A DNA stretch of 6,317 nt from a virus (Duplodnaviria; Heunggongvirae; Uroviricota; Caudoviricetes). The position numbers and the translations under genes were made by a program. Of the stretch, positions 5,569-6,317 are shown one piece after another (the first letter of the stretch is position 1; every line of letters starts with the position of its first letter). A model generated the notes under the pieces. It did no database searches. It worked only from the letters and a program-made list of their open reading frames with translations, and was not told the origin of the DNA. The stretch is taken from the IMG/VR virus record IMGVR_UViG_2778261069_000001. One strand, given 5' to 3'.

Positions 5569-5758
5569 TTTTTTGCCTGCCATTGATGAATCTCAATAAC
5601 CTGCCACCGAGTAGTTTTTATGCCCTGAATTGTATTTGTGTAGTAAACATGCTGACTGCAATGTAATAGAGTTTTTTTAGCCTGTAACCTCTTGACGGCA
5701 TTGAATTGCTTTTGTTATGAGTTGTAAGCCAATGTTATCATCTTGTATTGGGGTGGTT

Positions 5759-6317
5759 ATGAAGGATGGTGCGCTGCTCAGGAGTTCTTCACTTTTTATT
5801 GCCTATATGGGATGCCTTGGATGGGGGAGTGCTTATTTCTATGGATGGGGTACTTCTTTTTACTACGGCTTCCCATGGTGGATTGTAGGTGCAGGTGTTG
5901 ATGATGTTGCCAGAAGTTTATTTTTTGCAGTTATCGTCATTGCTATATTTCTTATCGGTTGGGGTATTGGTGTTGTATTCTTTTTCGCAGTGAAAAGAAA
6001 ACATTCTATGCAAGAGCTAAATGTATTTCGCCTTTATTTTGCTGTGGAATTATTGTTTGTGCCGGCAATTATTGAGTTTTCTATATTGAGACAGAAGATT
6101 CAGGTACCTCTTTTGCTACTGTCAGCAGCGATTGCGCTGGCGGTTACAATTTCGATAAGATCTTATGGGCGATTTTTATCGGTATCATGCTTCTATGATA
6201 AGCCATTTATAAAAAAACATTTTTTTGAGATTGTGATGATTGCTTTTGTGGCATATTTCTGGCTTTTTTCATTTCTGACAGGATATTACAAACCACAGTT
6301 TAAGAAAGAATATGAAA
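5759..6317 (+). CDS. Hypothetical polytopic membrane protein (moron downstream of pR'), 3'-partial; the ORF is open to the window end
   Basis: My own translation of the frame 5759..6317 (186 codons, no stop): MKDGALLRSSSLFIAYMGCLGWGSAYFYGWGTSFYYGFPWWIVGAGVDDVARSLFFAVIVIAIFLIGWGIGVVFFFAVKRKHSMQELNVFRLYFAVELLFVPAIIEFSILRQKIQVPLLLLSAAIALAVTISIRSYGRFLSVSCFYDKPFIKKHFFEIVMIAFVAYFWLFSFLTGYYKPQFKKEYE.... At least five long hydrophobic segments separated by short K/R-containing loops. GGGGTGG Shine-Dalgarno-like sequence at 5750-5756. In-frame ATGs also occur at 5717 and 5732, so the start is ambiguous. The region is markedly AT-rich relative to the phage backbone. No family match recognised. Confidence 0.6.
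   Translation, partial: MKDGALLRSSSLFIAYMGCLGWGSAYFYGWGTSFYYGFPWWIVGAGVDDVARSLFFAVIVIAIFLIGWGIGVVFFFAVKRKHSMQELNVFRLYFAVELLFVPAIIEFSILRQKIQVPLLLLSAAIALAVTISIRSYGRFLSVSCFYDKPFIKKHFFEIVMIAFVAYFWLFSFLTGYYKPQFKKEYE

What the first reader, a model, noticed from the sequence alone, without database searches (positions are those of the whole stretch)
5705..6317. AT-rich moron encoding an uncharacterised aromatic-rich polytopic membrane protein in the Q-to-lysis cargo slot
The frame opens after a TGA at 5702-5704 and is uninterrupted to the window end (possible starts 5717, 5732, 5759). It was missed by the ORF track only because it has no stop inside the window. The product has at least five hydrophobic helices, is unusually rich in Trp/Tyr/Phe/Gly (for example GWGSAYFYGWGTSFYYGFPWW) and does not resemble any lambda protein or any family I can name. 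Base composition and codon choice (many TTT/ATT/TAT) differ sharply from the flanking phage genes, indicating horizontal acquisition. The position between Q/pR' and the expected lysis cassette is the classic slot for lysogenic-conversion and anti-phage cargo (stx, porins and similar). A membrane protein here could plausibly be a superinfection-exclusion or abortive-infection effector, a surface-modification enzyme, or one component of a multi-gene system continuing to the right.
Basis: partly seen in the sequence, partly recalled or inferred. Interest (0 to 1): 0.75.

Follow-up and report, generated by a model that had tools for sequence, protein, structure and literature searches.

The report
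TfpB-family membrane gene after Q
The open frame is a real but already catalogued gene: the first 186 of 238 codons of a TfpB/STM1630-family inner-membrane protein that lambda-like prophages, including classic phage 434, carry just after the late promoter, and whose function nobody has yet shown.

Summary
A 204-codon open frame runs from 5705 to the window end (0 of 20,000 shuffles stay open). It is AT-rich (GC 0.38 against 0.50 for the flanking phage genes). It encodes an aromatic- and glycine-rich protein with several membrane helices.

The real start is ATG 5759. In an E. coli genome identical over window 5480-6317, the gene ends 158 bases beyond the window (238 aa).

The protein is not an orphan. 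RefSeq calls it "STM1630 family protein". It matches phrog_1521 and carries Pfam PF27470 (TfpB, named after a Moraxella pilin-locus ORF). It is 99.6% identical to gene 68 of phage 434. About 13% of complete E. coli genomes carry it.

Paralogues sit next to the LT toxin genes on ETEC plasmids, on Shigella virulence plasmids, beside sseJ in Salmonella, and after Q in a Yersinia prophage.

The predicted protein has five helices, the N-terminus inside, and a small periplasmic beta domain. No solved or viral structure resembles it, and it matches no known defence model.

The terminator present in 434 is degraded here, so the gene may be read from pR' in lysogens.

Function remains unknown. My leading guess, at about 0.3, is a stand-alone envelope factor that blocks entry. 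The gene is ordinary as an entity, and its function is an open question.

The parts
4856..5479 (+). Lambda-type Q antiterminator gene (context; left neighbour)
   Evidence: 207-aa ORF. Annotated 'antitermination protein' in the locus that is identical over window 5480-6317. Near-identical to lambda at the 3' end of Q and just beyond it, over the stretch aligned.
5522..5550 (+). pR'-type late promoter (TTGACT, 17 nt, TAAATT) with the Q-utilisation region. Homology to lambda ends a few bases downstream, around 5556.
   Evidence: Promoter scan hit at L001 9043-9071, which equals window 5522-5550. Alignment with lambda is near-identical through the -10 hexamer and then diverges. That this is lambda pR' is established knowledge; its activity was not tested here.
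5601..5619 (+). Degraded remnant of the intrinsic terminator that follows the late promoter in phage 434
   Evidence: The 434 hairpin folds at -9 to -13 kcal/mol and is followed by U8. The window copy folds at -2.2 kcal/mol and is followed by U5 (alignment). No other T-run between 5480 and 5760 has a hairpin stronger than -4.2 kcal/mol.
5600..5758 (+). Leader of the cargo cassette, shared with phage 434 although the two Q genes differ. Contains promoter-like elements: TTGACG at 5692-5697, TTGTTA at 5712-5717, and an extended -10-like TGtTATCAT at 5733-5741.
   Evidence: Window and 434 are near-identical from about 5600 onward and unrelated before it. The 'cctcTTGACG' element is also present upstream of the 59%-identical ETEC plasmid paralogue. 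Promoter function is inferred only.
5750..5761 (+). Shine-Dalgarno-like GGGGTGG (5750-5756) and the most likely start codon, ATG 5759
   Evidence: RefSeq places the start here. Homologues at 46-68% identity all begin at this position. In Escherichia sp. locus L005 the upstream ATG lies 26 nt away, so it is out of frame.
5759..6317 (+). Codons 1-186 (plus one base) of the 238-codon TfpB/STM1630-family gene; the window cuts it off
   Evidence: full ORF L001 9280-9996. phrog_1521 match E 3.6e-154. PF27470 is precomputed on the 99%-identical P0001. hhalign against Moraxella bovis TfpB gives probability 99.6%, E 8e-24.
5780..5866 (+). Helix 1 (about residues 8-36): the aromatic/Gly-rich region AYMGCLGWGSAYFYGWGTSFYY, the most conserved part of the family
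   Evidence: Invariant and near-invariant columns. The AF2 model has a helix here with pLDDT 88-93.
5867..5896 (+). Loop 1-2 (GFPWWIVGAG), predicted periplasmic. The conserved VDDVARSL that follows opens helix 2.
   Evidence: Mean K+R is 0.02 across 59 family members. Conservation is shown.
5897..6301 (+). Helices 2-5 (about residues 47-79, 89-111, 116-136, 155-181), with positively charged loops 2-3 and 4-5 predicted cytoplasmic
   Evidence: Hydropathy segments. AF2 helices. Family-wide K+R means are 2.7 and 3.0 in loops 2-3 and 4-5, against 0.02 and 0.75 in loops 1-2 and 3-4.
6308..6317 (+). First residues of the C-terminal beta-rich domain of about 55 residues, predicted periplasmic; the rest lies beyond the window
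   Evidence: Full sequence. The AF2 model has five strands, with 10-residue block means of pLDDT about 75-90 over this domain.

Best explanation
Shown. The frame is the 5' 78% of a real 238-codon gene that starts at ATG 5759. It encodes a member of the TfpB family (Pfam PF27470, RefSeq 'STM1630 family', phrog_1521). It is essentially the same gene as gene 68 of phage 434. It belongs to an AT-rich cassette that replaces the lambda 6S/tR' region immediately after a lambda-type pR'. It is therefore the first gene of the late transcript, upstream of a DUF3927/TciB-like gene and the holin.

Predicted. The product is an inner-membrane protein with five helices, the N-terminus in the cytoplasm, and a small beta domain in the periplasm. 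Its most conserved surfaces (helix 1, loop 1, the end of helix 5 and the beta domain) face the periplasm.

Inferred. The terminator hairpin present in 434 is degraded here, and the leader carries promoter-like elements. The gene is therefore probably transcribed at some level in lysogens and strongly after Q action. The family has no conserved partner gene and no invariant catalytic-type residue. It therefore most likely works alone, by binding rather than catalysis, at the periplasmic face of the inner membrane.

My committed guess is a lysogenic-conversion factor that blocks the entry of incoming macromolecules, that is, superinfection exclusion of phage DNA injection, or possibly of membrane-targeting toxins. 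The identity part I hold at about 0.95. The exclusion mechanism I hold at about 0.3; the confidence given below is for the mechanism.
For: Identity. DNA identical over window 5480-6317 occurs in E. coli chromosomes, with an annotated 238-aa CDS. The phrog_1521 match has E 3.6e-154. PF27470 (TfpB) is recorded on all listed homologues of the first search. A profile of the enterobacterial members matches Moraxella bovis TfpB at 99.6% probability, and JGI names that Moraxella protein 'protein tfpB'. Phage 434 gene 68 is 99.6% identical.

Real gene. dN/dS is 0.06-0.09, and full-length conservation reaches 46% identity in Salmonella and Yersinia.

Cassette boundaries. Homology to lambda ends just after the pR' -10 hexamer, and homology to 434 begins at about 5600.

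Accessory status. Lambda lacks the gene. The plaque-forming isolate 434B has the region that contains it replaced by DLP12 sequence (PMC9119081, together with the misc_feature).

Expression. The terminator is degraded to -2.2 kcal/mol, against -9 to -13 in 434, and the leader has promoter-like sites.

Topology. AF2 with a 59-sequence alignment gave pLDDT 80.5 and pTM 0.74, and charge counts across the family fit the positive-inside rule.

Stand-alone action. Neighbour clustering across 31 loci found no conserved partner.

The step to exclusion rests on established knowledge: the characterised prophage-encoded inner-membrane proteins of enterobacterial phages are mostly exclusion proteins (P22 SieA, PMC10883804; HK97 gp15; RexB) or O-antigen-modifying enzymes.
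Against: No experiment bears on the function. No PADLOC model matches, and the only PHROG matches are to families of unknown function. No structural relative exists among solved or viral structures.

In Pasteurellaceae and Conchiformibius the gene sits alone among housekeeping genes, at positions conserved between strains. That looks more like a cellular function than an anti-phage one.

The paralogues on ETEC LT plasmids, on Shigella pINV and beside sseJ, and the co-regulation of STM1630 with the SPI-2 regulon (PMC2639726), point towards host interaction.

Lack of an intrinsic terminator does not prove read-through, because Rho-dependent termination was not assessed. Whether helix 1 truly spans the membrane is uncertain, since it falls below the hydropathy threshold.
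Confidence: 0.3

Rival explanations
1. It is a host-interaction or envelope-fitness factor. The membrane protein helps animal-associated bacteria cope with the host niche (envelope stress, antimicrobial peptides, colonisation). The prophage carries it as a classic lysogenic-conversion gene, like bor, lom or iss.
For: Every named family member recovered comes from animal-associated Proteobacteria (Enterobacteriaceae, Pasteurellaceae, Moraxella, Conchiformibius). The family has only 71 representatives among 1.84 billion proteins. Paralogues lie 866 bp from eltAB on ETEC plasmids, on 106 Shigella plasmid records, those listed being 209-229 kb and read as the invasion plasmid pINV, and next to sseJ in Salmonella. 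STM1630 falls in the regulon shared with SPI-2 (PMC2639726) and is expressed in macrophages (10.1101/450098). An iss gene lies in the same prophage type.
Against: Deleting STM1630 did not change replication in macrophages (10.1101/689075). African ST313 strains have naturally silenced its promoter (same paper). AT-rich mobile genes often sit near virulence genes simply because both ride on mobile DNA. No signal for a host-contacting surface was found: the protein is predicted to lie in the inner membrane.
Confidence: 0.25
2. It modulates surface appendages (type IV pili or flagella), as the family name suggests. It would be an inner-membrane accessory protein that tunes assembly or retraction, borrowed by phages, for example to change receptor availability.
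For: In Moraxella bovis, M. lacunata and M. equi the homologue lies inside the invertible pilin segment, between two inverted pilin 3' parts and next to the IS110-type recombinase piv. Most non-enterobacterial carriers are, from general knowledge, piliated and naturally competent groups. A high-throughput screen reported 1.6-1.7-fold hypermotility for an STM1630 deletion (PMC4219756).
Against: The M. lacunata copy carries a 2-bp frameshift, so it is dispensable there. The motility phenotype is not among those confirmed on re-testing with clean deletions (PMC4534456 abstract). No pilus or flagellar gene lies next to the enterobacterial, Pasteurellaceae or plasmid copies examined.
Confidence: 0.12
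3. It serves the phage's own late programme. As the first late gene, it would adjust the envelope during lytic growth, for example lysis timing, or protecting progeny from re-adsorbing to or injecting into dying cells.
For: The position directly after Q and the late promoter is kept with three different Q types: lambda-type here, Q82-type in 434, and a third in Yersinia. It would be strongly expressed after Q antitermination.
Against: Lambda and the plaque-forming 434B lack it (PMC9119081). Many family members are not in prophages at all. No holin, antiholin or spanin PHROG matches. In 434 it lies 2.8 kb upstream of the lysis genes.
Confidence: 0.1
4. It is one part of a multi-gene unit with the downstream DUF3927/TciB-like small membrane protein, and perhaps with the 132-aa gene on the opposite strand.
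For: The DUF3927 gene follows 85 bp after the stop, with no predicted terminator between, in the E. coli prophage copies and phage 434 examined. PHROGs labels its family 'TciB-like inhibition of cell division or resistance to colicin'.
Against: The pairing is absent from the E. albertii, Salmonella, Yersinia, ETEC-plasmid, Shigella-plasmid, Pasteurellaceae and Moraxella copies.
Confidence: 0.1
5. It is a passenger with no current function in E. coli.
For: No phenotype is known. Many database entries are partial or truncated. The M. lacunata copy is frameshifted.
Against: dN/dS is 0.06-0.09 and the gene keeps its full length across genera. It is present in 684 of 5,426 complete E. coli genomes, with a median of two matching places per carrying genome. 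Most 'partial' entries come from short contigs.
Confidence: 0.05

Closest known systems
Phage 434 gene 68 (CPT_434_68, UMO75332.1, 'putative membrane protein')
   Same: 99.6% amino-acid identity over all 238 residues. It has the same leader from about window 5600, the same position as first gene after the late promoter, and the same downstream DUF3927/TciB gene.
   Different: 434 has a Q82-type Q and an intact terminator hairpin upstream. It also carries a NanS-type esterase gene before the lysis genes. The 434 annotation uses the upstream ATG (247 aa).
Moraxella TfpB (namesake of Pfam PF27470)
   Same: Homologous over the whole length (hhalign probability 99.6%, E 8e-24, 228 columns). It shares the N-terminal AY.YGWG..YGYPWW motif, the helix pattern and the C-terminal beta domain.
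   Different: Only about 25% identity. It lies inside the invertible pilin segment next to piv, not in a prophage. Its function is also unknown.
Salmonella Typhimurium STM1630 (source of the RefSeq name 'STM1630 family protein')
   Same: 46% identity over the full length, and the same size of 238 aa.
   Different: It is chromosomal and lies next to sseJ, not in a prophage. It has its own mapped promoter and is expressed in macrophages. The deletion shows no macrophage phenotype (10.1101/689075, 10.1101/450098).
Prophage-encoded inner-membrane exclusion proteins (P22 SieA, HK97 gp15, T4 Imm)
   Same: They have the same general logic: a small, stand-alone inner-membrane protein carried as non-essential phage cargo that acts at the membrane (PMC10883804; general knowledge).
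   Different: No sequence or fold similarity was detected. Exclusion activity has not been tested for any TfpB-family member.
Other cargo of the slot between Q and the lysis genes (stx in 933W-type phages, nmpC in DLP12)
   Same: It occupies the same slot downstream of Q/pR', is AT-rich foreign DNA, and would be boosted by prophage induction (PMC3252337 discussion for stx).
   Different: Those genes encode secreted toxins or outer-membrane proteins; this one encodes an inner-membrane protein of unknown role.

Membership tests
Pfam PF27470 (TfpB) | Match to the family model | tested here: met
   PF27470 is precomputed on P0001 (99% identical) and on all other homologues listed in that search. 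The name 'TfpB' is given. The local Pfam copy lacks this model, so my own scan returned nothing.
Pfam PF27470 (TfpB) | Full-length homology to the namesake Moraxella bovis TfpB | tested here: met
   hhalign of the enterobacterial alignment against the M. bovis ORF gave probability 99.6%, E 8e-24 and 228 aligned columns. JGI names the 97%-identical Moraxella protein 'protein tfpB'.
Pfam PF27470 (TfpB) | Shared architecture: aromatic/Gly-rich helix 1, four further helices, C-terminal beta domain | tested here: met
   Alignments A4 and A6 and the AF2 model. The window itself shows only the first three residues of the beta domain.
Moraxella tfpB locus type | Location inside a pilin inversion segment next to piv | tested here: not met
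   The window copy lies after Q in a lambdoid prophage. The Moraxella arrangement is confirmed. This is a property of the namesake locus, not of the protein family.
RefSeq 'STM1630 family protein' | Annotated as such, and similar to STM1630 over the full length | tested here: met
   WP_085441047.1 carries this name in loci identical to the window over 5480-6317. It is 46% identical to the Salmonella protein next to sseJ. No NCBIfam HMM matched, so the name presumably comes from a BLAST rule.
PHROGs phrog_1521 | Match to the family profile | tested here: met
   E 3.6e-154, profile positions 1-222 of 222; the category is 'unknown function'.
Moron (Hendrix-type phage cargo unit) | Extra DNA between genes that are adjacent in related phages, with deviant base composition | tested here: met
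   Lambda has unrelated sequence between pR' and S. GC is 0.36-0.38 against 0.50.
Moron (Hendrix-type phage cargo unit) | Own promoter and own terminator | tested here: inconclusive
   Promoter-like sites are present, but in number they do not exceed the shuffled expectation (6 found, 6.1 expected). No terminator-like site lies between the stop codon and the DUF3927 gene.
Known anti-phage defence systems (PADLOC-DB 2.0) | Match to any defence-protein model | tested here: not met
   No families matched at E up to 0.1 for this protein or for its two downstream neighbours.
Superinfection-exclusion proteins (SieA, Imm, gp15 types) | Sequence or fold similarity to a characterised member | tested here: not met
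   The only PHROG matches are to families of unknown function. BFVD Foldseek best E is 0.08, and the PDB searches gave no meaningful hit.
Superinfection-exclusion proteins (SieA, Imm, gp15 types) | Blocks infection by other phages when expressed alone | not testable with these tools
   This needs plaque and DNA-entry assays.
Holin / antiholin | Match to a holin family and adjacency to an endolysin gene | tested here: not met
   No holin PHROG or Pfam match. A separate class II holin gene lies 0.87 kb downstream.

The most novel reading that the evidence does not exclude
The TfpB/STM1630 family could be a previously unrecognised class of single-protein inner-membrane effector, either a phage-entry or toxin-entry block or an envelope factor used during host colonisation. 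Mobile elements would have spread it into the first late-gene slot of lambdoid prophages (phage 434 included), ETEC LT plasmids, Shigella virulence plasmids and the Salmonella SPI-2 regulon. Showing this would give the first function for a fold that has no structural relatives.
Probability: 0.25. Interest if true: 0.55.

Novelty: already known. Interest (0 to 1): 0.3.

Why it matters
As a sequence feature it is already catalogued: it is annotated in RefSeq, Pfam, PHROGs and the phage 434 genome. What remains open is its function.

About one complete E. coli genome in eight carries this exact gene. Relatives sit beside LT toxin genes, on Shigella virulence plasmids, and in the Salmonella virulence regulon. 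Yet no phenotype is established and the fold has no known relative.

A cheap cloning and plaque-assay experiment, or a comparison of phage 434 with and without the gene, could give a first function to a widespread prophage cargo gene. The finding does not change any current view of phage biology.

Tried and rejected
1. Local Pfam-A, NCBIfam and PADLOC scans of the full protein found nothing. Scanning all 59 family members against Pfam gave only scattered chance-level hits, the best shared one being DUF2070 in 4 members at E 0.36.

2. A family profile searched against all PDB sequences gave no hit at E up to 10.

3. The first AF2 run, with a shallow enterobacterial alignment, was poor (pLDDT 59.6). 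Adding distant members raised it to 80.5.

5. I looked for a conserved neighbour gene across 31 loci and found none. Pfam on Pasteurellaceae and Conchiformibius neighbours showed only housekeeping genes.

6. Lipoprotein idea rejected. The 'YMGC' sequence is a poor lipobox, and the Cys is not conserved.

7. Enzyme idea (O-antigen or lipid modification) judged unlikely, because no polar residue is invariant across the family.

8. Non-coding RNA or tRNA in the region: none found.

9. Literature searches for accession numbers, PF27470 and phrog_1521 found nothing. Searches for DUF3927/TciB gave only unrelated hits. The 'tfpB' hits listed were unrelated: chemistry and anaesthesia papers, the Tfpb pilus class, or the Acinetobacter motor ATPase of the same name.

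The distant alignment A4 was too diverse for locus finding.
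Full report
**1. Observation**

The window is the early-right/nin region of a lambda-like prophage. It carries O, P, ren, ninB, a DNA adenine methyltransferase, ninE, ninF, ninG, ninH, a Ser/Thr phosphatase and Q. 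After Q (4856-5479) comes a 279-base non-coding stretch and then the frame in question.

TGA lies at 5702-5704. The frame from 5705 is open for 204 codons to the window end. The other five frames hold 9-14 stops each, and none of 20,000 shuffles of the same bases kept this frame open.

GC is 0.376 (GC3 0.328), against 0.45-0.53 for the flanking genes. Codon choice is strongly A/T-biased: TTT/TTC 19/7, ATT/ATC 16/2, TAT/TAC 14/3. The aromatic/Gly-rich motif and the hydrophobic segments are present.

**2. The full gene and its start**

An 838-base query (window 5480-6317) is 100% identical to chromosomes of several poultry E. coli strains. It is at least 95% identical in 682 further genomes. In total 684 of 5,426 complete genomes carry it, with a median of two places per carrying genome and none on plasmids.

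In strain E2 the CDS corresponds to window 5759-6475. It encodes 238 aa, WP_085441047.1, annotated 'STM1630 family protein'. It is followed by these genes:
- a 52-aa DUF3927 protein (phrog_1470, 'TciB-like');
- a 132-aa hypothetical gene on the other strand;
- a class II holin;
- a truncated lysozyme gene.

ATG 5759 is the best start for three reasons. It has a GGGGTGG Shine-Dalgarno-like sequence 3 bases upstream. All homologues at 46-68% identity begin there. In Escherichia sp. locus L005 the upstream ATG lies 26 bases away and is therefore out of frame. The window holds codons 1-186.

**3. Family**

My local Pfam, NCBIfam and PADLOC scans found nothing. PHROGs gave phrog_1521, of unknown function, at E 3.6e-154.

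The large protein collection returned 108 clusters, all carrying the precomputed Pfam family PF27470. Other outputs name that family 'TfpB'. A profile search of 1.84 billion representative proteins found only 71 members, so the family is small.

Genome scanning placed members in Escherichia, Salmonella, several Pasteurellaceae genera, Conchiformibius and Moraxella. Names in the protein-search tables add Citrobacter, Cronobacter, Klebsiella, Enterobacter, Yersinia and Mangrovibacter.

In Moraxella the homologue lies between two inverted pilin 3' segments, next to an IS110-type recombinase. This is the classic pilin inversion region. JGI names the protein 'protein tfpB'. A profile of the enterobacterial members aligns to M. 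bovis TfpB over 228 columns with 99.6% probability. Membership is therefore secure, but no function is attached to the family.

**4. The same gene in phage 434**

Phage 434 (OL657226) encodes a 99.6%-identical protein, gene 68, annotated 'putative membrane protein'. It lies after a Q82-type Q and an annotated terminator. It is followed by TciB, a small membrane protein, a SASA/NanS-type esterase, a pinholin and a SAR endolysin.

The window and 434 are unrelated through Q and then become near-identical from about 5600. The window and lambda are near-identical through Q and the pR' hexamers (TTGACT 5522-5527, TAAATT 5545-5550), then diverge at about 5556.

The cassette therefore replaces the lambda 6S/tR' region. 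It travels with its own leader behind different Q modules. A Yersinia prophage also has NinG, Q and a TfpB-family gene in that order, with a third Q type.

The gene is not needed for plaque formation. Lambda lacks it. In the clear-plaque isolate 434B the whole region is replaced by DLP12 DNA (PMC9119081; misc_feature).

**5. Expression signals (inference)**

The 434 terminator hairpin folds at -9 to -13 kcal/mol and is followed by U8. The homologous window sequence folds at only -2.2 kcal/mol and is followed by U5. No other T-run between pR' and the ORF has a hairpin better than -4.2 kcal/mol.

The leader carries an extended -10-like TGtTATCAT at 5733-5741. It also carries a TTGACG element that is present upstream of the 59%-identical ETEC paralogue. 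The number of promoter-like hits does not exceed the shuffled expectation, so none of this is proof.

I infer some transcription in lysogens and strong transcription after Q action. Rho-dependent termination was not assessed.

**6. The protein**

AF2 with 36 close sequences was poor (pLDDT 59.6). With 59 sequences, including distant members, it reached pLDDT 80.5 and pTM 0.74. The modelled sequence was P0001, which is 99% identical and has a 9-residue N-terminal extension.

The model has five long helices and a five-stranded C-terminal domain. Across the family, loops 2-3 and 4-5 are rich in Lys/Arg (means 2.7 and 3.0), while loops 1-2 and 3-4 are poor (0.02 and 0.75). By the positive-inside rule the N-terminus is cytoplasmic and the C-terminal domain is periplasmic.

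The most conserved parts are helix 1, loop 1 and the start of helix 2, the end of helix 5, and the beta domain. In this topology all of them lie at or near the periplasmic face.

No polar residue is invariant across the whole family; only one Tyr is invariant, and a few Ala, Gly, Pro and Tyr positions are nearly so. This argues against an enzyme.

dN/dS against the E. albertii and Escherichia sp. alleles is 0.06-0.09. No solved or viral structure resembles the model, and no PDB sequence matches the profile.

**7. Contexts elsewhere**

No neighbour gene is conserved across genera.
- In Pasteurellaceae and Conchiformibius the gene is solitary among housekeeping genes (ftsK-aroG-tsaB, smc, mdh, purF).
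- Salmonella STM1630 lies beside sseJ. It is listed with the regulon shared by SPI-2 (PMC2639726). It is silenced by promoter SNPs in ST313. Its deletion had no effect in macrophages (10.1101/689075; 10.1101/450098).
- A reported hypermotility of the STM1630 deletion (PMC4219756) is not among the phenotypes confirmed on re-testing (PMC4534456).
- Paralogues of 57-59% identity lie 866 bases from eltAB on ETEC plasmids.
- Paralogues are also found in 106 Shigella plasmid records; those listed are 209-229 kb, which I take to be the invasion plasmid pINV.

**8. Interpretation**

Identity, boundaries and accessory status are shown. The mechanism is not.

The gene encodes a stand-alone, non-enzymatic inner-membrane protein with a conserved periplasmic face. 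A prophage carries it at a site likely to be read in lysogens. Among characterised proteins, this fits best with inner-membrane exclusion proteins such as P22 SieA (PMC10883804). I commit to that at about 0.3.

The virulence-linked contexts and the stable chromosomal copies in Pasteurellaceae keep a host-interaction or cellular envelope role nearly as likely (0.25). An appendage-modulating role (0.12) and a phage late role (0.1) are less likely.

**9. Verdict**

The claim that it belongs to no family is wrong: it is an already annotated member of a named but uncharacterised family, and it is present in a textbook phage. Interest is modest and rests on the unknown function, not on the sequence feature.

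Noticed in passing
window 5601-5619; L002 6338-6363: The intrinsic terminator that follows the late promoter in phage 434 (-9 to -13 kcal/mol, U8) is degraded in the window copy (-2.2 kcal/mol, U5). The lambda-type pR' therefore has no convincing intrinsic terminator before the cargo gene.
   Followed up: partly
window 5545-5575; L044 (lambda 44500-44800): Homology to lambda stops a few bases after the pR' -10 hexamer. The lambda 6S RNA/tR'/orf-64 region is wholly replaced, while an AACAAT element sits where lambda has AACGAT, which from memory is its pause-inducing element.
   Followed up: partly
L034-L037 5001-5714; L043 4001-4714: A 59%-identical paralogue lies 866 bp upstream of, and divergent from, the heat-labile enterotoxin genes eltAB on ETEC plasmids, among IS elements and near the STb and EAST1 genes. 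It appears in 1,285 index blocks of the contig collection.
   Followed up: partly
L042 5001-5717 (NZ_CP026771.1): A 57%-identical paralogue (WP_011114760.1, hypothetical) is found in 106 Shigella plasmid records; those listed are 209-229 kb and I take them to be the invasion plasmid pINV.
   Followed up: no
L025 5974-6757; L020 491-1276: The Moraxella lacunata tfpB copy has a 2-bp deletion relative to M. bovis, which splits it into 195-aa and 68-aa ORFs. M. equi shows the same split.
   Followed up: partly
L001 10082-10719 (about 85-720 bases beyond the gene's stop, outside the window): Downstream lie a 52-aa DUF3927/TciB-like gene (phrog_1470) and a 132-aa hypothetical gene on the opposite strand, which has only a sub-threshold Pfam match (Sid-5, 18.9 bits, cut-off 27). 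Both sit between the TfpB-family gene and the holin.
   Followed up: partly
L001 5179-5259 and 11077-17287 against window 141-1738: The strain E2 prophage that matches the right end of the window exactly is defective. It has O missing, only a fragment of P, a truncated lysozyme gene, and several structural genes truncated. The window carries intact O and P, so it comes from a different, more complete prophage.
   Followed up: no
L003 (JAIITD010000172.1, 3,054 bp): A contig binned as 'MAG: Veillonella sp.' carries phosphatase, Q (97% identical to the window's) and a TfpB-family gene 99.6% identical to the window's. It is almost certainly a mis-binned E. coli prophage fragment.
   Followed up: no
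window 2536-3063: A phage N6-adenine methyltransferase gene sits between ninB and ninE. From memory, lambda has ninC/ninD there. Phage 434 has the same methyltransferase arrangement.
   Followed up: no
L012-L015, L013/L022: Aggregatibacter actinomycetemcomitans carries two family members at two different chromosomal sites. Each site is conserved between strains, which suggests stable chromosomal genes there, not mobile cargo.
   Followed up: no
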